Positions 275-9,758 of a stretch of DNA of 9,758 bases are shown here, in pieces. Position 1 is the first letter of the stretch, and each line of letters starts with the position of its first letter. Position numbers and translations under genes: made by a program. The notes under the pieces were generated by a model. The model ran no database searches. It had not been told where the DNA came from and worked only from the letters and a program-made list of their open reading frames with translations. The stretch lies in assembly GCA_043228905.1 (NCBI GenBank), contig JBHGNT010001333.1, positions 1-9,758 of the forward strand, read 5' to 3'. The DNA comes from Azolla caroliniana (lineage: Eukaryota > Plantae > Polypodiophyta).

Positions 275-827
275 TGTTGAGAAGCAAGCTCAACATGGTA
301 TGTGATGCTTATTGGGAAATAAGCTATAGTAGCTATTTAGCTACTTGTGAACATAAAGGAGAAACAACTAATTAGCTACTGACAGCTAATTAGCTACTGA
401 CAACTATTTAGCTACTGACAGCTATTTAGCGACTGACAGCTATTTAGCGACTGACAGCTATTTAGCGACTGACAGCTAATTAGCTACTGACAACTATTTA
501 GCGACTGACAGCTAATTAGCTGCATACGTAAGTAACTTATTACTTAGGTAGAAAGTAAGAGAAAGGTAAGTAAGAAACACAGGAAGTAGAACTCTGAGAG
601 AGAGAGTGAGGAAAGAGAGGAAGAACTCAGAGAGTGAGAGAAAAAGAAAGAAATAGACGAGAGCAAGTAGAGCTTCGCGTATAATGAAATAGAAGAAGTT
701 TTGGCTGCTATAGAGGTAAGTCTCCTTCCCCCTTCCCTTCTGTGTTTGAGCACTAAACGATCTAGCACACCACGATCCGCCGCGCACATAAGAAGAGCCC
801 GAGTGCCTTCTTCACGTTTTCTTAACA
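275..827 (+). repeat. 5' LTR of element A (553 bp)
   Basis: Begins TGTTGAG, ends CTTAACA directly before the PBS. Matches 5404-5903 except for array copy number, 2 substitutions (675/5750, 711/5786) and a 1-bp indel near 768/5843. Confidence 0.97.
364..521. repeat. 18-bp tandem array in 5' LTR, consensus ACARCTAWTTAGCKACTG, 8 full units plus a 14-bp partial
   Basis: Units start at 364, 382, 400, 418, 436, 454, 472, 490, 508. The core AGCTAATTAGCT is palindromic. Confidence 0.96.
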
Positions 828-839
828 TGGTATCAGAGC
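828..839 (+). promoter_or_regulatory. Primer-binding site complementary to the 3' end of initiator tRNA-Met
   Basis: TGGTATCAGAGC immediately after the LTR-terminal CA; the canonical plant tRNA-iMet PBS. Confidence 0.96.
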
Positions 840-966
840 AGAGTTGCTCATAAAGAAGAGTACAAAAGTGCATAGATCTGAGAAAGGTATTTCTTTGTTT
901 GTTGATCTGAATCAGAAAGGTACTTGTTGAAGTAATCGTAGCAGAAACCCTTGTTTGGAAGAGATA

Positions 967-1620
967 ATGTTTGCAGAGAATGCGGGCCAAATAGTTACAG
1001 AGAAACTAGATAAAAACAATTTTCCGGCGTGGAAATTTAGAATGACAAATTTCCTAATGGGGAAAGGATACTGGGATTACATTGAAGGAGACCTAGAAGA
1101 GGCTCTGGAGATCCCAGAAGAAAATGCCACAGCAGCACAGATTAAAGCATTCAAAGATTGGAATCAAGGGGCAAGGAAGGTAATGCATTGGTTCTCACTT
1201 AGCATCTCAGATTCGATGCTTGGGCACATACAGGATGCTATGCTCCCAAAAGAAGCTTAGGACAGTTTGGTAAAACTGTTTGCAGTAAACACAAAAGCTA
1301 GAAAGCTACAGTTGAAGACTGAGCTAAATACCTTATAAAAAGGTAAGATGTCAATAAATGAGTATGCCTTGAAAATAAAGAGCATATGTGAATCACTTGC
1401 TTCTATCAATGTAAAGATAGAAGATGATGATAAGGTAGAAATATGCTTAAGAGGCTTAGGACCTCAATACAAAAGCTTTAAAACCTCTATGCTTACAAGG
1501 GATAGTATCCCAAGCTTTCTAGATTTGGTTTCAATGCTTGTAGTAGAAGAAAGCTATGCTTACAAGGGATAGTATCCCAAGCTTTCTAGATTTGGTTTCA
1601 ATGCTTGTAGTAGAAGAAAG
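967..1620 (+). pseudogene. gag: Copia Gag (capsid-like region), disrupted
   Basis: ATG at 967: MFAENAGQIVTEKLDKNNFPAWKFRMTNFLMGKGYWDYIEG... In-frame stops TAG 1258-1260 (EA*DSL, probably TGG) and TAA 1336-1338, then MSINEYALKIKSICESLASI...LRGLGPQY. Frameshifted by the 67-bp duplication. Confidence 0.9.
1487..1620. repeat. Perfect 67-bp tandem duplication within gag
   Basis: 1487-1553 is identical to 1554-1620 (CTATGCTTACAAGG...GTAGAAGAAAG); shifts frame 1 to frame 2. Confidence 0.97.
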
Positions 1621-3070
1621 GAATCAGATGGATGATGTAAATAAAGGAAATCTTGAGAATGAGGGGCAAGCCCTATATAATAGTGCTGGAAGAGGCCGAG
1701 GAAGAGGCCATGGAAGATTTGGCTCAGCAAGAACCAACAATAATGGTTATCAAGGAAGAGGACAACAAACCATTAGAGGAAGAAATAACAACAGAGGCAG
1801 GGGGAGCAACCAAGGTAGAGGTAAGCAAACATATGTAAATGATGATGGTTGTTGGTATTGTGGAAAACCAGGCCACACACAAGCTGAATGTTACAAGAAG
1901 CAAAATGATGAGCAAAGAGGAAAGAGACAGCAGAATAACTATGCCCAAACTAGTGAAGATTGTGAAAAAGATGGTGCATTTGTGGTACAACATGAGATAG
2001 CAGCAGTGGCTGAAAGCTCACAGAAATGTAATGAAGAGTTTACATGGTATGTAGACTCGGGGGCATCTAACCATATGATTGGACATGCAAACTCGTTTGA
2101 AAGGTTGAGAGAACCAGAGATTCCTGGCTATGTACAGACGACTGATAATAGTACTCACCAAATAGAACATGTTGGAGATATCCCATTGTGGGAAGAAAAA
2201 GGAAAGACTAAGTATATGTTGAGTGTAATGCATGTTCCAAATCTTGCTAAGAATCTGATTTCTGTTGGACAGATAGTAGAGCAAGGTATGCAAGTAAAGT
2301 TTAAGCAAAGTGGATGCTATATAGAAAAGAATGGGAAGCTCATTGCAAAAGGAAAACGACAAGGAAGAATGTTTATTTTGGATGTTGACATGCCTAGACA
2401 GATTTCAGCTATGTTTGCAAATGGAATGAGTGTAGTCTCAGATGTGGAAATGTGGCATAAAAGGATTGGCCACATAAGTATGCAAACCCTAAAGAATATG
2501 TTGAGAAAAGATGCAGTGGCTGGACTGCCAAAACTGAAAAATTGTGAAATGGGAAAGATATGTGAAGCATGTCAATATGGAAAGCAAAATAGGTTGTCAT
2601 TCCCTCATGAAAGACATGTAAGTAAAAATTTGTTGGATTTGGTACATACGGATGTATGGGGACCAACTAAGAATGCATCTATCGGTGGTTGCAGATTTTA
2701 TGTAACTTTTATTGATGATTGCTCAAGGAAAACATGGGTGTATTTCATGAAAGAGAAAAGTGAAGTGTTTGAATGTTTTCGTAAGTTTAAATGCATGGTA
2801 GAAAAGCAGGCAGGTACAAGAATAAAATGTTTAAGATCTGATGGAGGAGGAGAGTATTTCTCCAATGAATTTTCTGATTTTCTATGCAATCAGGGAATAA
2901 GAAGACAGTTCACATGTAGATATACTCCACAGCAAAATGGAGTTGCTGAGAGGAAAAACAGAACATTGGTGAACATTGCAAGGGCTTTGATGACAGAGAA
3001 GAATATGCCATTGTACTATTGGGCAGAAGCTGTAAATACAGCGAATTATATTCTAAATAGAGATGTATAA
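1556..3070 (+). pseudogene. pol: Gag C-terminus (RG-rich region, CCHC knuckle), aspartic protease, pre-integrase and integrase core
   Basis: CWYCGKPGHTQAEC (CX2CX4HX4C) at 1850-1891, WYVDSGASNHM at 2045, WHKRIGH...CEAC HHCC motif, catalytic D 2651, D 2840, E 2948 (D-35-E). Ends at a 2-bp GA insertion (about 3062-3063); the true frame continues CITSGIHEATPEECFYGRKPSLEHLKVFG. Confidence 0.95.
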
Positions 3071-5385
3071 CATCGGGAATACATGAAGCAACTCCTGAAG
3101 AGTGTTTCTATGGAAGGAAACCTAGTTTAGAACACTTAAAAGTGTTTGGATGCCTTGCATATGTACATGTGCCTGCAGAAGTAAGAAGTAAGCTGGATCC
3201 AAAAGCAGAAAAATGTATTTTTGTTGGCTATTCAGAAGAACAAAAAGGGTATCGATGCTATAACCCTGTAACAAAGAAGATTGTGACAAGTAGGGATGTA
3301 ATCTTTGATGAGTTAGCCAGCTGGTATAGTCCAAAACAAAATCCAGAGATTGATGAAGACAATGAGATTGAAGACAGAGACAAATCTGAAAATGTAGAAG
3401 ACTGCCACAGAGATGGAAGCAAGGTTGGACAGCAGAGTCCAACATCAACAGAATGTTCTGGACCATCAAAAAGCTCAGATGGTAAATCTGATCCGAATTC
3501 TTGGAGTGGAAAAAGTGGAGGACACAAAAAATGTGATGATAAAAAAGGAAAACAGAAAATGCCACAGTATGAAATGTTGGATGACTTATCTAAAAACATG
3601 GAAGATGAGGATTCAGATGTGTCATTGGATGATCTTCTTAGTATAAGAGGATTGAAAATCCCTGGTATGGAAAAAGCATTGAAGGATGCAAATCAGAAAC
3701 TGAGAAGATCAGATAGAGAGAAAAAAATTGTTGAAAGATTTGGTTATGATACATATATGGCTATGCATTATGCATATATGTCTAAGGTGGTACAGATCCC
3801 TGATCCAAGTAGTTTTGATGAGGCTAAAACTGAGAAGAAATGGGTGGATGCAATGCAAGAAGAGATTGATGCATTAGCTGAAAACAGAACATGGGATTTG
3901 GTGAAGTTACCAAAAGGAAAAAATGTGGTAGGTTGCAAATGGGTCTACAAGACAAAGCATGATTCCATTGGGAATGTAAGTAGACATAAAGCAAGATTGG
4001 TTGCAAAGGGATATGCCCAAATGCAAGGAATTGATTATGATGAGACATTTGCACCGGTTGCAAAGATGGCAACATTGAGGACATTACTGGCTGTAGGTGC
4101 AGCCAGAAGATGGTTTCTTCATCATATGGATGTAAAAAATGCCTTTTTACATGGTAACTTGGAAGAAGAAGTGCATATGTGTCAACCACCAGGTTTTGAA
4201 GATAGGAAGCATTCAGATTATGTATGTAAGCTGAAAAAGGCTCTCTATGGACTGAAACAAGCACCAAGAACATGGCACAGAGAACTTTCAGATTATCTGA
4301 AAAAACTTGACTTCAAAATGTCAAAGGCTGATTCATCATTGTATGTTAAAAGGAAAGATGATTGTATTGTTGTGATTCTGATTTATGTTGATGATCTCAT
4401 CATTGGAGGTGATTTCATGGATGAGATAAGTAAGTTGAAAAGAAATTTGGAAATGAAATTTCATATGAAAGATTTGGGAGATCTGAGATATTTTTTGGGT
4501 ATTGAAATCATCAGATCTGAAAGTGGTATATGTGTGTTGCAAAGACAATATGCAACAACTATGTTGAAAAAGTATGGTATGCTTGGATGCAAACCTATTG
4601 GAGTACCACTAGATAAAAACTACAAATTGAGGGCTGATTTGGGAGCCAAAATAGAAGATGTAAACATGTACAGGTCTATGGTGGGCAGCCTTATTTATTT
4701 GACCATAACAAGACCTGATTTGAGTTATGCAATTGGTTTAGTCAGCCAATTTATGCAACAGCCAAAAAAGCCGCATTTGGACTGCATTAGAAGAATTCTG
4801 AGGTATGTAAAAGCTACTCAGAACTATGGATTGTTTTACAGGGCTGATTTGGACATAAATCTGGAAGGATATACAGATGTTGATTGGGCTGGAAGCCAAA
4901 CAGATAGAAGATCCACAAGTGGATATATCTTTACATTGGGAAGTGCAGGTATTTCACGGAGTAGCAAGAAACAGGCTATTGTTGCATTGTCTAGTACTGA
5001 AGCTGAGTACAGAGGAGCTGCCATAGCCACTTGTGAAGAGGTATGGATCAGAAGATTGCTTGCTGATTTGGGAGAGTATATAGACGGTACTGTCACAATC
5101 TGGTGTGACAACATGAGCAACATTCAGCTTGCAAAGAACCCAGTGTTCCATGCAAGAACAAAGCACATTGAAGTGCATTATCACTTTGTTAGAGAAAAAG
5201 TGATTGAAGGAGAAGTTGATTTGGTGTATGTGAATACAAATCAGCAGGTTGCTGATATTCTCACAAAGGGATTGAGTGTGGAAAAGCATACACAGTTTCA
5301 GAACATGATGGGAGTTGTAGACATTGATATGATGGCTGAAAAGCATCATGGAAAAGAAGTTGTAGATAACCCCAAGAAAGGATAA
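3064..5385 (+). pseudogene. pol: Integrase C-terminus, reverse transcriptase and RNase H of element A (open frame, but downstream of frameshifts)
   Basis: FGCLAYVH...SKLDPKAEKCIFVGY, CKWVYKTK, KARLVAKGY, DVKNAFLHG, LYGLKQAPR, YVDDL at 4384, YTDVDWAG, STEAEY, CDN, HARTKHIEVHYHFVRE, ADILTK; stop at 5383-5385. Confidence 0.96.
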
Positions 5386-5394
5386 GTTGAGCTT

Positions 5395-5403
5395 GAGGGG
5401 GAG
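5395..5403 (+). promoter_or_regulatory. Polypurine tract of element A
   Basis: GAGGGGGAG abutting the TG start of the 3' LTR. Confidence 0.93.
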
Positions 5404-5903
5404 TGTTGAGAAGCAAGCTCAACATGGTATGTGATGCTTATTGGGAAATAAGCTATAGTAGCTATTTAGCTACTTGTGAACATAAAGGAGAAACAACTAA
5501 TTAGCTACTAACAGCTATTTAGCTACTGACAGCTATTTAGCGACTGACAGCTAATTAGCTACTGACAACTAATTAGCTACTGACAACTATTTAGCTGCAT
5601 ACGTAAGTAACTTATTACTTAGGTAGAAAGTAAGAGAAAGGTAAGTAAGAAACACAGGAAGTAGAACTCTGAGAGAGAGAGTGAGGAAAGAGAGGAAGAA
5701 CTCAGAGAGTGAGAGAAAAAGAAAGAAATAGACGAGAGCAAGTAGAGCTCCGCGTATAATGAAATAGAAGAAGTTTTGGCTGCTACAGAGGTAAGTCTCC
5801 TTCCCCCTTCCCTTCTGTGTTTGAGCACTAAACGATCTAGCACCACCACGATCCGCCGCGCACATAAGAAGAGCCCGAGTGCCTTCTTCACGTTTTCTTA
5901 ACA
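5404..5903 (+). repeat. 3' LTR of element A (500 bp)
   Basis: Direct repeat of 275-827, followed by the TSD TACTA. Confidence 0.97.
5493..5596. repeat. 18-bp tandem array in 3' LTR, 5 full units plus a 14-bp partial
   Basis: Units start at 5493, 5511, 5529, 5547, 5565, 5583; three fewer than in the 5' LTR. Confidence 0.96.
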
Positions 5904-5908
5904 TACTA
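5904..5908 (+). repeat. Right 5-bp target-site duplication TACTA
   Basis: Identical to 270-274. Confidence 0.97.
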
Positions 5909-6074
5909 TTATGTGTATAGGCTATTAGAAGACAAATCAGTGGCGTACATGTACTCTCATTTGGTCATGTGCATCAATGTCCTAATGTCGCAATACAATA
6001 GCTGCTCAGGTTTATACACAGTTAGTGCTAATGTGTATGAATGTATTTACAACAGTATGCCATGGAATTTGTAG
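5904..6074 (+). pseudogene. 3' part of the ORF interrupted by element A
   Basis: In frame with 228-274 once the element and one TSD are removed: YYYVYRLLEDKSVAYMYSHLVMCINVLMSQYNSCSGLYTVSANVYECIYNSMPWNL, stop TAG 6072-6074. Confidence 0.65.
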
Positions 6075-6619
6075 CTACAAGTAGCAATTACCAGTTTTCT
6101 TGTAAAACAAACAAAGCACATGTATTACAAATAAACAATTTAATGGACCTATTTGGAAGTTTTTTTTTTTATATACAGTCTACTTTTTGTGATTCTTTCT
6201 CAACAAAATTGTGTGTCATTTTTATATACAATCTTCTTTCTGATATACAGTTTAATAATATCGTTTAGGGTTCTTCTTTCTGAGATACAAATTAACTCAA
6301 GTGAACCATGTACAAGTTAAAATAGTTTGCATAATTTTAAGAAAAAGCACTGTCATGAAATCAACAATCCTGAACATACTCTTAAAATTACACAGTAGAT
6401 AAGTTACTCAAAACAAGCAATTTAATTCTTCATTGATTAAGTGGTAGCAAATTACATATTTATAACATCTCATTGCCAATGTCTATTAGAACAGCAGGGT
6501 CAATACCCTCGAGCGACAGACCATATATGTTCAGCACTCTAGGATAGGGAGGAACGAGCCACCTGAGATAGAAAATCAGTAATCAGAATTGGTGTAAAAA
6601 CAAAATTTTTAATGTGAAT

Positions 6620-6830
6620 TTGGTGCAAAATTACAACACTTTGAGACAGTAATCTGAAATTTGTAATCTGTCCTTTTCAACATGTATCTGAAATCAACCA
6701 CATCAAACACCCTAATCAGATTTTGTCATGAGAATTGGTGCAAAATTACAAGAGATTGCGACAGTAATAAGAAATTTGTAATTAGAAATTTGTAACCAGA
6801 AACTTGTAATCTGAAATTTGTAATCAGAAA
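6620..6830. repeat. Imperfect direct repeat (period 115) plus 14-bp tandem array GTAATCAGAAATTT
   Basis: TTGGTGCAAAATTACAA at 6620-6636 and 6735-6751; 14-bp units start at 6764, 6778, 6792, 6806, 6820. Confidence 0.85.
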
Positions 6831-6863
6831 CCCTAAACCACTTAAGGGAAAAACAAACCCTAA
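6828..6863. promoter_or_regulatory. Two telo-box motifs (AAACCCTAA)
   Basis: AAACCCTAA at 6828-6836 and 6855-6863, variant ACACCCTAA at 6707-6715. Function not demonstrable from sequence. Confidence 0.45.
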
Positions 6864-6977
6864 TCATCACTAAAGGCAAAAATCAACCGTACTATGAAAT
6901 TCTGTCAATCAGAAACACACTTGCTGCTACAGCCCGATCTTCGAGACATCCTTGTTTGGGACTCCAATGACTTCGCC

Positions 6978-7072
6978 CTATTCAATATTTGGGAAAGATG
7001 AACAAGCACCAAAGTTACAGACAGTTATCAAAAAGGAAAAAAAAAGTTTTTTAATATGTAACTGATACATAC
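6978..7072 (-). other. Candidate 95-nt spliceosomal intron on the minus strand
   Basis: Donor CAG|GTATGT at 7073/7072, T-rich interior, acceptor AATAG|GG at 6978/6977, flanked by GC-richer sequence. Confidence 0.5.
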
Positions 7073-7461
7073 CTGGACGAGGATCGACTTGCTCGTGTGT
7101 TGTAGCTCTAAAGGTGCAATGTGGATCTCAGAGTTTTTGTGCTGCTGCAGGGGCTTCGTCTGCATTCATGCTCAGAGTACTCCATCTATTTGGAGTTCGA
7201 ACTCGAACTCAAGATTATCAAGAATTTGATGACATTCAAGTCGACCTTAGATGATGGCACTATTCCCCATGTTCCACTACGTTAGAAACCAAAGTTCAAA
7301 TATTTGAGTATTCTCATAAATTAAATTACATGTATTTAACTAATAAAACATAAAATTTCGTAAACCATCCTTATGATTTTCCCACAAAAAACTAGCTAAA
7401 CAAATAGCTAATTAGATGTGGCCATTTTAGTAGCTAATTAGCTATAATAGTGTTTCCACGC

Positions 7462-8919
7462 TTATACGGTCTTAAGCAAGCCCTGCGAGCTTGGAACACG
7501 AAGATTACGCAACGGTTGGGTAGGATGGGGTTTACGATGTCCAAATCGGACTCTTCGTTATTCGGTCGGCAAGGTTGACATGGACCAGTTTGTCTTTTAC
7601 TTTATGTTGATGGTTTAGTCATCGTCGGTGCTGACTTGGAAGAAATCCGTTGTGTAAAGTCTCAGCTTGTGCGTCGTTCGAAATGAAGGATCTCGGCAAT
7701 CTTCATTACTTCCTTGGGATCGAAGTTATCCATTCCCTCGAAGGCATATTGATCAACCAACGTCATTACGTGTTGAATATGCTCTTCAAGTTCGGGATGG
7801 TAGATTGTAAGCCCATCTCAACCCCTCTGGATAGAAATGTAAGGCGTGCAACCCGACACGATTTCGACAGATTGTCGGAAGCCTCATTTACTTGACGATC
7901 ACTCGACCCGACCTCAACTATCCAGTCAGAATGATCAGTCAATTTATGTATCAACCCACAACTGAACACCTTCAATGCGCACAAAGAATATTAAGATATG
8001 TTATCGGCACGAAAGACATGGCGTTGTTGTATCGTGAAGGCATAGCCGAACAGTTAGTCGGCTACACGGATGCCGATTGGGCCGGAAATGCCCATGATCG
8101 TAGTCCACATCCAGATACGCAGTCTCATTGGGAAGTGCGGAGATCGCGTGGAGTAGTAAGAAGCAGCCAACAGTAGCGTTGTCGAGCACGGAGGTTGAAT
8201 ATCGAGGGGCGACTGTCACTACGTGCGAAGTCATCTAGCTGAAACGGCTATAACGGGATCTGCATGTCAAGGTGTTCGATTCAACAATGATCTATTGTGA
8301 CAACCTCAACAGCTTCCACCTTGCGAAGAACCATGTGTTCCACGCCCGGACCAACCACATTGAGGTGCATTATCACTTTGTCCGTGAGTGTGTCCTTTCT
8401 AGTGAGGTCGAACTGGCGTATGTTCCAACCAGTCGGCAGATTGCCAACATCTTCACCAAGCCCCTTGGTCTCGAAAAGTTAGGGCATGTCTCGGGTGAAC
8501 TGGGTTTGCATCACCTCGATATGCCAAACTTGAGGGGGAGACAAGAACAGGAACAAGAGCGTGAAAGGAGCGGTAGTGACCGTTATGCCGAAACGAATGA
8601 AGAATTCAATTTCAGGCTGGCTGAAGAAGCCAATGAAGAAGGAAACAAGGGTCGTAATCACAAGGAAGAGCCGAAGACAACCCAACAAAGGGGAAATACT
8701 ACCAAAAAGGGTGTAAAGGCCAAGGCCAAGACGTGGTCTGATGTTGTCAAGGGCCTAAAAACAAAAGATGAATTAGAGACAGCCAATTCGGGCGAAAGTG
8801 GAATTCAATCAGAAGTGTCTGATTTAATCGAAATGTTCGATTTGGATATACGAATCGACTCAGGGCCAAGTGGAGGAAAGGGCAACGAAAGAGGCGCCAA
8901 CACCGCGACAACAAGGTAG
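7462..8919 (+). pseudogene. pol: RT/RNase H remnant of element B with charged C-terminal extension
   Basis: LYGLKQA, YVDG (mutated YVDD, 7603-7614), MKDLGNLHYFLGIE, VGSLIYLTITRPDL, GYTDADWAG, WSSKKQPTVALSSTEVEY, HARTNHIEVHYHFVRE, ANIFTKPL. Stops at 7576, 8236, 8251; frameshifts near 7670, 7840 and 8104. Confidence 0.92.
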
Positions 8920-9065
8920 CTGAGAAGGGCCGCATGAGCAGACAAGCTGACCGGAAGGGTCGAAGCGCACGAAATCAAACGGGTCGAGGAGCGCGAGTGA
9001 GGCGTGAAGCCACGAGAAGCCGGAGCGAAGATCCAGCGGAGCACGCGGAATCTCAAGTTGAGCTT

Positions 9066-9074
9066 GAGGGGGAG
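9066..9074 (+). promoter_or_regulatory. Polypurine tract of element B
   Basis: GAGGGGGAG abutting TGTTGAG at 9075; identical to the PPT of element A. Confidence 0.9.
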
Positions 9075-9474
9075 TGTTGAGAGACAAGCTCAACATTGGG
9101 TACGTAACCCAGTACGTAGATTGGGTGCGTAAATCCATATGGAAAATATGGCCGTGGTAGTGTTTAAATCAAGAGGCCGTTAGAATGTTATTCCTCGTAA
9201 GGAATAGTTTTGGGAGTTAGTGTATAAGGCTCATTTATGAGTGGTCAAGTACTAGCAGTACTTGTGTCAGCCCGATAGTCAAGGCTTGTATAAAAGGTGC
9301 TCACAGAGCACGAAATATGTACAGAGAATTATTTCAATATAGTTTCGTATTTTCTACTCTCTCTATCTCTCCCTCCCTTTCTCTGTGTTTTTTGTGTTTC
9401 ACCGAACTGTCGTACTTCCAAACCGTGCACTCTGTGTTCTTACACATATGCTTCCGCACACATATTCTTTTACA
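9075..9474 (+). repeat. 3' LTR of element B (about 400 bp)
   Basis: Starts TGTTGAG after the PPT; TATAAAA at 9289-9295; CT-rich tract at about 9350-9385; ends TTTTACA at 9474 where the gypsy reading frame is cut. No partner LTR in the window, so the end is inferred. Confidence 0.8.
9289..9295 (+). promoter_or_regulatory. Putative TATA box of element B LTR
   Basis: TATAAAA(GG) in mid-LTR, upstream of a pyrimidine-rich tract. Confidence 0.55.
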
Positions 9475-9758
9475 TGGGGCCACTAGAATGATCGTTGTAC
9501 TAAATCTAATGTTTTAGTACTACCAAAATGCCCAGTTGTATATGTGTCATTTTGGACATTTGAATTGTCAATAATCCATACCTGGTTGTTGCGACTGTGA
9601 ACAAGATGACTGAGAGGGGTCAATTTGTGCTAGAATGGCTTGAGCGAAAGCATCTGTCTCCAAGTCCTCACGTATGGTATCGATAATGTGGGAATCCGAT
9701 GGCATATCGAAAACCCGCGTTGCTTGCAGTTGTGTCGGTCCCAGGATTACTTGCTTTT
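9475..9758 (-). pseudogene. pol: Ty3/gypsy pol fragment (RNase H-integrase linker and start of the integrase zinc-binding domain)
   Basis: Minus strand reads KQVILGPTQLQATRVFDMPSDSHIIDTIREDLETDAFAQAILAQIDP...MDY*QFKC, then after a frameshift/deletion near 9552 NDTYTTGHFGSTKTLDLVQRSF*WP. This matches the gypsy (H)D....GHFG..KT..LV.R.FWWP motif. Not in the ORF track. Confidence 0.82.

What the first reader, a model, noticed from the sequence alone, without database searches (positions are those of the whole stretch)
5384..5425. 42-nt PPT-enclosing alternative-hairpin block conserved between two divergent copia elements
Seen: AAGTTGAGCTTGAGGGGGAGTGTTGAGA-AG-CAAGCTCAACAT (5384-5425) matches 9055-9096 at 40/42 positions, while the flanks and the rest of the LTRs do not align. 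GTTGAGCTTG (5386-5395) pairs perfectly with CAAGCTCAAC (5414-5423), presenting the PPT and U3 start in an 18-nt loop. Alternatively TGTTGAG (5404-5410) pairs with CTCAACA (5418-5424), which is mutually exclusive and the only option in the 5' LTR. Both differences fall in positions unpaired in both folds. In element A the block lies after the pol stop, so protein constraint cannot explain it. Inference: a cis-acting switch for plus-strand priming, PPT protection or att-end formation.
Basis: partly seen in the sequence, partly recalled or inferred. Interest (0 to 1): 0.8.

Follow-up and report, generated by a model that had tools for sequence, protein, structure and literature searches.

The report
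Known hairpin around retrotransposon priming site
Two decayed jumping genes share a 42-letter stretch in which a short inverted repeat brackets the site where second-strand DNA copying starts; this arrangement was described in 2010, related elements keep its pairing, and it likely helps define the primer, while the proposed two-state switch is not supported.

Summary
The blocks match at 40 of 42 bases, a perfect 10-bp stem encloses the AGGGGGAG polypurine tract (PPT) and the LTR start, and both differences are unpaired. It is not local gene conversion. An 8-bp or longer stem borders the PPT in 43 of 78 related loci (mostly two decayed families) and in 0 of 118 chance motif matches. Among 10 hand-picked junction types, 5 of 11 pairs show two-sided changes. 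These come from three loci. Relatives read the junction in all three frames or not at all, so the constraint is on nucleotides. This anatomy is the inverted repeat around the PPT/3'LTR junction that Bousios et al. 2010 described in Sireviruses and almost half of classic copia elements, with the same proposed role. The alternative LTR-start hairpin shows 0 of 7 compensated pairs and is lost in 4 of 10 junction types. It likely arises because the left arm repeats the integrase-fixed LTR start. An earlier, unchecked scan note on another genome reports an LTR-start hairpin in gypsy elements. Verdict: new member of a known kind; the switch is unlikely.

The parts
275..827 (+). 5' LTR of copia element A (TGTTG...AACA)
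   Evidence: aligns to the 3' LTR with 8 differences in 499 columns; TACTA target duplication at 270-274 and 5904-5908
275..295 (+). LTR-start hairpin in A's 5' LTR (the alternative fold; no left arm upstream)
   Evidence: fold
828..839 (+). primer binding site TGGTATCAGAGC, tRNA-Met 3' end type
   Evidence: sequence; type as given in PMC2829016 passage
931..5385 (+). interrupted gag-pol of element A (gag, protease, integrase, RT, RNase H)
   Evidence: ORFs, Pfam
5386..5395 (+). left arm of the inverted repeat, bordering the PPT
5396..5403 (+). PPT octamer AGGGGGAG
   Evidence: identical to the octamer of PMC2829016
5404..5410 (+). 3' LTR start / integrase attachment end TGTTGAG; 5' arm of the alternative hairpin
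   Evidence: fits consensus TGTTRNR of PMC3601003
5414..5423 (+). right arm of the inverted repeat, 10 nt inside the 3' LTR
5404..5903 (+). 3' LTR of element A
7601..8532 (+). decayed RT/RNase H of 5'-truncated element B (start approximate)
   Evidence: Pfam RVT_2; RNase H 54% identical to A over 140 residues
8533..8540 (+). internal PPT-like octamer at the RNase H end of B, without TG start and without a full inverted repeat
9057..9066 (+). left arm, element B
9067..9074 (+). terminal PPT octamer, element B
9085..9094 (+). right arm, element B
9075..9474 (+). 3' LTR of B (end inferred from TTTTACA and weak likeness to A's LTR end; no 5' LTR in the window to confirm it)

Best explanation
[quoted passage not shown] Shown: the left arm borders the PPT, the right arm lies 10-17 nt inside U3, the pairing covaries, and the reading frame over the block varies. 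Inferred: once RT has copied U3, the PPT and the left arm, and RNase H has nicked the RNA, the two arms of the new minus-strand DNA would snap together. That would strip RNA fragments from both sides of the PPT and leave only the G-rich octamer annealed in the loop, with its 5' end against the stem. Priming would then start exactly at the TG that integrase needs. The alternative hairpin is likely a by-product: the LTR start is fixed by integrase, the left arm contains the same GTTGAG, so the right arm complements both.
For: Stem of 8 bp or more (Watson-Crick) bordering the PPT in 43 of 78 related loci, 7 bp or more with G-T in 69 of 78. Controls: at most 4 bp in 118 of 118 chance motif matches, and 7 bp or more with G-T in 4 of 118. 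Ten junction types: 89% of cells paired, 5 of 11 pairs changed on both sides, covariation score 0.283 against 0.092 +/- 0.031, 0 of 500 shuffles, slid controls at most 0.145; RNAalifold finds the same helix unprompted. Block identity 0.83 against 0.29 for both flanks. Junction read in three frames or non-coding. Summed contig depth over the block is about 15-100 times that of the flanks in 4 of 4 runs, with loose ends at the block edges. Internal octamers lack the stem (L126, L171, L176: 2-3 bp), as published for upstream PPTs. The enclosing stem is favoured on the minus DNA strand in all 12 contexts tested (0.73-0.99), but variably on RNA (0.11-1.00). Same anatomy and proposed role in PMC2829016. 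PMC3616985 argues RNA structure itself is unlikely to control PPT priming because the PPT acts hybridised to DNA.
Against: No experiment; the function is inferred, and my five searches listed no direct test of this inverted repeat. The 9 two-sided cells come from only three loci (L127, L193, L196), two of them close relatives, and the 10 rows were hand-picked, with undecayed copies chosen for the two big families. 67 of the 78 loci belong to two families. In L127, L122, L136 and L198 both arms are also coding. L197 and L154 have a mismatch in the inner stem. SHAPE puts the Ty3 PPT in a paired region, not a loop (PMC11381356), and HIV/SIV PPTs are partly paired, so a looped-out PPT is not universal. 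The data cannot separate action on DNA from action on RNA.
Confidence: 0.6

Rival explanations
1. The stem acts on the genomic RNA: it exposes the PPT or pauses RT there (the wording of Bousios et al.), or serves packaging or 3'-end handling, rather than folding on minus-strand DNA.
For: The RNA stem is stable in isolation. Covariation does not tell RNA from DNA. This is the published proposal.
Against: RNA occupancy depends on the window (0.11-1.00). The RNA stem must be unwound before the PPT can act as primer (argument in PMC3616985). Only 1 of 110 cells is a G-U pair, weakly unlike a typical RNA helix.
Confidence: 0.2
2. A true two-state switch: the right arm pairs with the left arm before priming, and with the LTR start afterwards (5' end of plus-strand strong-stop DNA, or the cut U3 RNA), aiding release or strand transfer.
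For: The hairpin of 6-7 bp is kept in 6 of 10 junction types (A, B, L122, L136, L197, L154) against 6 bp or more in 2 of 118 chance matches. In wider RNA windows it reaches 0.76-0.88 in A and 0.83-0.84 in B because upstream bases take the left arm. LTR base 7 is G in all six types that keep it and not G in the four that lose it. An unchecked scan note reports U3-start hairpins in gypsy elements.
Against: 0 of 7 pairs compensated; pairing 74.3% against 73.2% shuffled, 175 of 500. Absent in L127, L198, L193, L196. All five covarying pairs of the main stem change bases that this hairpin needs, while CAAG, used only by the main stem, never varies. The upstream competitor is not a conserved feature (significant in 2 of 11, not in A or B). 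Both halves have independent constraints (integrase end; pairing with the left arm).
Confidence: 0.12
3. The arms are kept matched by template switching or conversion between them, or the A/B identity reflects exchange of the junction between families in one host, with little selection on structure.
For: Two-sided changes are all Watson-Crick to Watson-Crick. A and B share spacer length and outer bases that other types lack. Loose ends suggest A-type and B-type linkers are related just upstream of the block.
Against: In 64 genomic copies of two families the arms decay independently: 11 left-only, 25 right-only, 1 both against 1.33 expected in 602 cells, so no homogenisation after insertion. 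The same block occurs in distant hosts' elements at 52-66% RNase H identity, and the fixed position is shared with Drosophila Copia, Tnt1 and BARE-1. Correction during reverse transcription itself is not excluded.
Confidence: 0.08

Closest known systems
[quoted passage not shown] 2010, PMC2829016; repeated in Benachenhou et al. 2013, PMC3601003)
   Same: Same octamer AGGGGGAG; left arm borders the octamer; right arm inside the 3' LTR; PPT at the 5' side of the loop; left arm may lie in the pol end; upstream octamers lack the repeat; same proposed role in primer formation.
   Different: Arms are 10 bp and perfect (published means 19 bp classic, 28 bp Sirevirus); right arm starts 10 nt into the LTR (means 18 and 28); no AT between PPT and TG; the right arm also complements the LTR start in part of this lineage, which the sections I read do not mention.
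LTR terminal short inverted repeats / integrase attachment ends, TGTTRNR...YNYAACA (PMC3601003)
   Same: TGTTGAG fits the 5' consensus, and CTCAACA of the alternative hairpin fits the 3' consensus.
   Different: Here the 3'-like heptamer lies 14-20 nt inside U3, not at the LTR end.
PPT structural context in HIV-1/SIV (PMC3616985) and Ty3 (PMC11381356)
   Same: Conserved or defined secondary structure at the plus-strand primer site.
   Different: There the G-rich part (HIV/SIV) or the whole PPT (Ty3) is base-paired; here it is predicted to be looped out.

Membership tests
PPT/3'LTR inverted repeat of Ty1/copia (Bousios 2010) | Left arm ends at the first base of the PPT octamer | tested here: met
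   arm 5386-5395, octamer 5396-5403; same in B and relatives
PPT/3'LTR inverted repeat of Ty1/copia (Bousios 2010) | Right arm inside the 3' LTR; loop holds PPT, attachment site and LTR start | tested here: met
   right arm 10 nt inside the LTR; 10-17 nt in the intact junction types
PPT/3'LTR inverted repeat of Ty1/copia (Bousios 2010) | Upstream PPT copies lack the repeat | tested here: met
   B 8533-8540 and L126, L171, L176 with 2-3 bp only
PPT/3'LTR inverted repeat of Ty1/copia (Bousios 2010) | Facilitates RNase H primer formation (proposed, not shown, in the paper) | not testable with these tools
   needs biochemistry
Ty1/copia (Pseudoviridae) | Order gag-protease-integrase-RT-RNase H, RVT_2 RT, TG..CA LTRs, 5-bp target duplication | tested here: met
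Sirevirus | [quoted passage not shown] | tested here: not met
   octamer abuts TG directly; feature
Sirevirus | Several octamers in a long linker; large element (means 10.6 kb, LTR 1.3 kb) | tested here: not met
   A has one linker octamer, is 5.6 kb, LTRs 0.50-0.55 kb, like the classic means; B has two octamers
Bryco lineage (REXdb) | PBS complementary to half tRNA-Met | tested here: not met
   A's PBS is of the tRNA-Met 3'-end type; lineage feature from PMC6317226 passage
Other REXdb lineages (Lyco, Gymco, Ale, Alesia, Ivana) | Placement among reference RT/RH/INT domains | not testable with these tools
   REXdb fasta and table too large to read; my tree has no lineage references
Conformational switch | Both alternative helices conserved, with compensatory change in each | tested here: not met
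   main helix 5 of 11 pairs, alternative 0 of 7

The most novel reading that the evidence does not exclude
In this copia lineage the right arm is a real toggle. It first closes the PPT loop with the left arm, then, after RNase H cuts at the PPT/U3 border, pairs with the freed LTR start to form a capping hairpin on plus-strand strong-stop DNA that drives release and second-strand transfer. The three-way pairing would explain why the arm sequence has stayed nearly frozen across families at about 55-65% RNase H identity.
Probability: 0.12. Interest if true: 0.6.

Novelty: new member of a known kind. Interest (0 to 1): 0.28.

Why it matters
The structure is known, but its function appears untested in the papers I could search, and a 2013 paper called for a systematic search for PPT-containing hairpins (PMC3601003). 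This lineage gives a compact 42-nt, perfectly paired example with natural compensatory variants (L127, L193, L196) and natural loss of the alternative hairpin. That makes it a handy substrate for testing how copia RT selects its plus-strand primer. It is also a practical marker for 3' LTR borders in these genomes. It does not reveal a new kind of system.

Tried and rejected
No host genome is held, so copies in the window's own assembly could not be counted. The exact 24-nt pattern gave 0 hits in viral contigs, and the RNase H alignment found no relative there (32 pattern matches, none confirmed). Rfam at gathering threshold over 5200-9600: 0 matches. No RNA holder was listed; run X19 (RNA only by guess) has 7 contigs on B's junction and is not used as evidence. 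The 1% variant scan over B's junction listed no variant at all, not even the known spacer difference, so that blank is uninformative. In one search the only listed variants within 5384-5425 were at 5413 and 5425, both unpaired, but 27 rows were not shown. An upstream third arm completing a switch: significant in 2 of 11 junctions, not A or B; rejected as a conserved feature. Homogenisation of arms after insertion: rejected. Protein constraint: rejected as the sole cause. Sirevirus and Bryco membership: rejected. The 10 genome-contig loci (24-45% identity) were read but not aligned or counted. Earlier-findings search by sequence: nothing. The host was not identified; nearest source-named relatives are Adiantum nelumboides proteins (50-59%) and flowering-plant proteins (up to about 56%).

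Full report
Setting. The window holds one complete but interrupted Ty1/copia element, A (275-5903). Its LTRs are 275-827 and 5404-5903, with 8 differences in 499 aligned columns, a TACTA target duplication and a PBS at 828-839. Gag, protease, integrase and RVT_2 domains lie in copia order. It also holds the 3' part of a second element, B, whose RNase H is 54% identical to A's over 140 residues. No host genome is held and the host was not identified. A plant is inferred from the named relatives.

Observation. The two blocks match at 40 of 42 positions, and the differences (5412-5413) are unpaired in both folds. The 10-bp stem with an 18-nt loop is the minimum-energy fold as RNA (z -3.3, -3.8) and as DNA on both strands (z -4.5 to -6.1). 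The 7-bp LTR-start hairpin is real but about half as stable (-7.2 against -13.9 kcal/mol). The LTRs do not otherwise align.

Not local conversion. Contigs of four runs under four organism labels were laid on 5200-5560. Summed depth over the block was about 15-100 times that of the flanks (X1: 808,926 against 8,400-10,000 in RNase H), with loose ends at 5384 and 5423-5427. Depth is not a copy number, but many unrelated flanks clearly join this block. An RNase H alignment fetched the best 80 of 494 confirmed loci from a partial scan of metagenome contigs. I located junctions by the PPT and LTR start alone, without the arms; 78 of 80 gave a call. Three of these (L126, L171, L176) are internal octamers rather than LTR junctions and stay in the count. 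A Watson-Crick stem of 8 bp or more borders the PPT in 43 of 78, and 7 bp or more with G-T in 69 of 78. In 118 of 120 chance motif matches from viral contigs (2 too near an end) the stem never exceeded 4 bp, and reached 7 bp with G-T in 4. The loci are not independent: 13 and 54 belong to two families. In 64 copies of those families (3 with a 1-nt PPT deletion left out), 31 of 38 arm changes are C>T or G>A and the arms decay independently (1 double change, 1.33 expected). The perfect stem is therefore a property of replicating lineages, not of repair in the host genome.

Not protein constraint. Eleven of 120 homologous proteins, among them three Adiantum proteins, end in an SLRGSVE-x-SSS-like tail that the block would encode, 23 of 120 have an LRG-type tail and 32 of 120 an EGEC-type tail. 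At DNA level the junction is translated through in L122, L136, L127 and L198, carries the pol stop in the left arm in another frame in L193 and L196, and is non-coding in A, L197 and L154. Among ten junction types the block is 0.83 identical against 0.29 for either flank.

Covariation. I aligned ten junctions chosen by hand, one per type. Undecayed copies stood for the two large families. L200 (near-identical to L198), L171 (cut), L126, L176, L188 (no terminal junction found in the contig) and the ten genome-contig loci were left out. The enclosing stem has 89% of cells paired and 5 of 11 pairs with two-sided changes; its covariation score is 0.283 against 0.092 +/- 0.031, reached by 0 of 500 shuffles, and slid controls reach at most 0.145. 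RNAalifold finds the same helix. The nine two-sided cells come from L127, L193 and L196. The last two group with a Hibiscus protein in the tree, so this is about three independent branches. The alternative hairpin has 0 of 7 compensated pairs and pairs no better than shuffles (175 of 500). It is absent from L127, L198, L193 and L196. All five covarying pairs change right-arm bases that it needs, while CAAG, used only by the main stem, is invariant. For the switch: it is kept in six types, LTR base 7 is G exactly in those six, and in some RNA windows it dominates (up to 0.88 in A, 0.84 in B) because upstream bases capture the left arm. That result flips with window size, and the upstream competitor is not conserved (2 of 11).

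Mechanism. Shown: geometry, conservation and covariation of the enclosing stem. Inferred: it folds on the new minus-strand DNA after RNase H has nicked the flanking RNA, clears competing fragments and leaves the octamer as primer with its 5' end against the stem, so plus-strand synthesis starts at the TG. This fits the fixed left arm and the variable right-arm distance (10-17 nt), and the steady minus-strand occupancy (0.73-0.99 in 12 of 12 contexts, against 0.11-1.00 for RNA). It also fits the argument in PMC3616985 that a PPT primes while hybridised to DNA (passages). An RNA-level role remains open. The alternative hairpin is most simply the result of the left arm repeating the integrase-fixed start TGTTRNR (PMC3601003, passages).

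Known. PMC2829016 (abstract and outline; passages including section 8; section 6; part 1 of section 15; supplement 2, one page unreadable) describes this repeat. Its left arm always borders the AGGGGGAG octamer, its right arm is inside the 3' LTR, and it occurs in Sireviruses and almost half of classic elements, including Copia, Tnt1 and BARE-1. The authors propose that it exposes the PPT to RNase H. PMC3601003 repeats this and asks for a systematic search. A is a classic element, not a Sirevirus (no AT spacer, one linker octamer, 5.6 kb). Its REXdb lineage could not be assigned because the reference files were unreadable (PMC6317226: passages and supplement list). Ty3's PPT is paired in SHAPE models (PMC11381356, passages). 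Five searches of the open-access library (listings only) showed no experimental test of the repeat and no description of the alternative hairpin; subscription papers are not covered. One unchecked scan note on another genome reports U3-start hairpins in gypsy elements; I treat it as a lead only.

Verdict. A real, conserved, covarying cis element, and a new member of a kind described in 2010. The switch, which is the novel part, fails the covariation test and gets about 0.12. Interest 0.28.

Noticed in passing
window 8533-8540 and 9067-9074; L197:2302 and 2734; L154:939 and 1079; L171, L126, L176: B belongs to a well-supported clade in which an octamer at the RNase H end is followed by 140-530 nt of linker before the true junction. 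In several members the internal octamer is followed by TACTGAAG or similar, resembling a worn LTR start, as if the junction had been duplicated. It parallels the multiple PPTs of Sireviruses.
   Followed up: partly
window 8541-8919: B's RNase H frame runs on for about 125 codons of charged, low-complexity sequence with a KTWSDV motif shared with L197; no Pfam match.
   Followed up: no
window 366-522 and 5495-5597: U3 of A carries an 18-nt tandem array of partly palindromic units, three more units in the 5' LTR than in the 3' LTR; reminiscent of the palindromic U3 arrays in the title of PMC4728375 (search listing only).
   Followed up: no
window 7406-7450, minus strand: Short inverted match to A's U3 repeat units directly upstream of B's truncated end; possibly a fragment of an A-related LTR.
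   Followed up: partly
window 1258-1260, 1487-1620, about 3061-3070: A's gag-pol is interrupted by an in-frame stop, an exact 67-bp tandem duplication and a frame change, although its LTRs differ by only 1.6%.
   Followed up: no
window 6620-6833: 14-nt tandem repeats and a 48-nt duplicated stretch in the AT-rich spacer between A and B.
   Followed up: no
L201-L210: Ten contigs filed in bacterial genomes or MAGs encode copia-type RNase H (24-45% identity), probably eukaryotic contamination.
   Followed up: no
L196 and L136, 15-45 nt upstream of the left arm: A second exact copy of the right arm (8 and 9 nt) lies upstream in the pol tail (shuffle p 0.010 and 0.001, 2 of 11 tested).
   Followed up: partly
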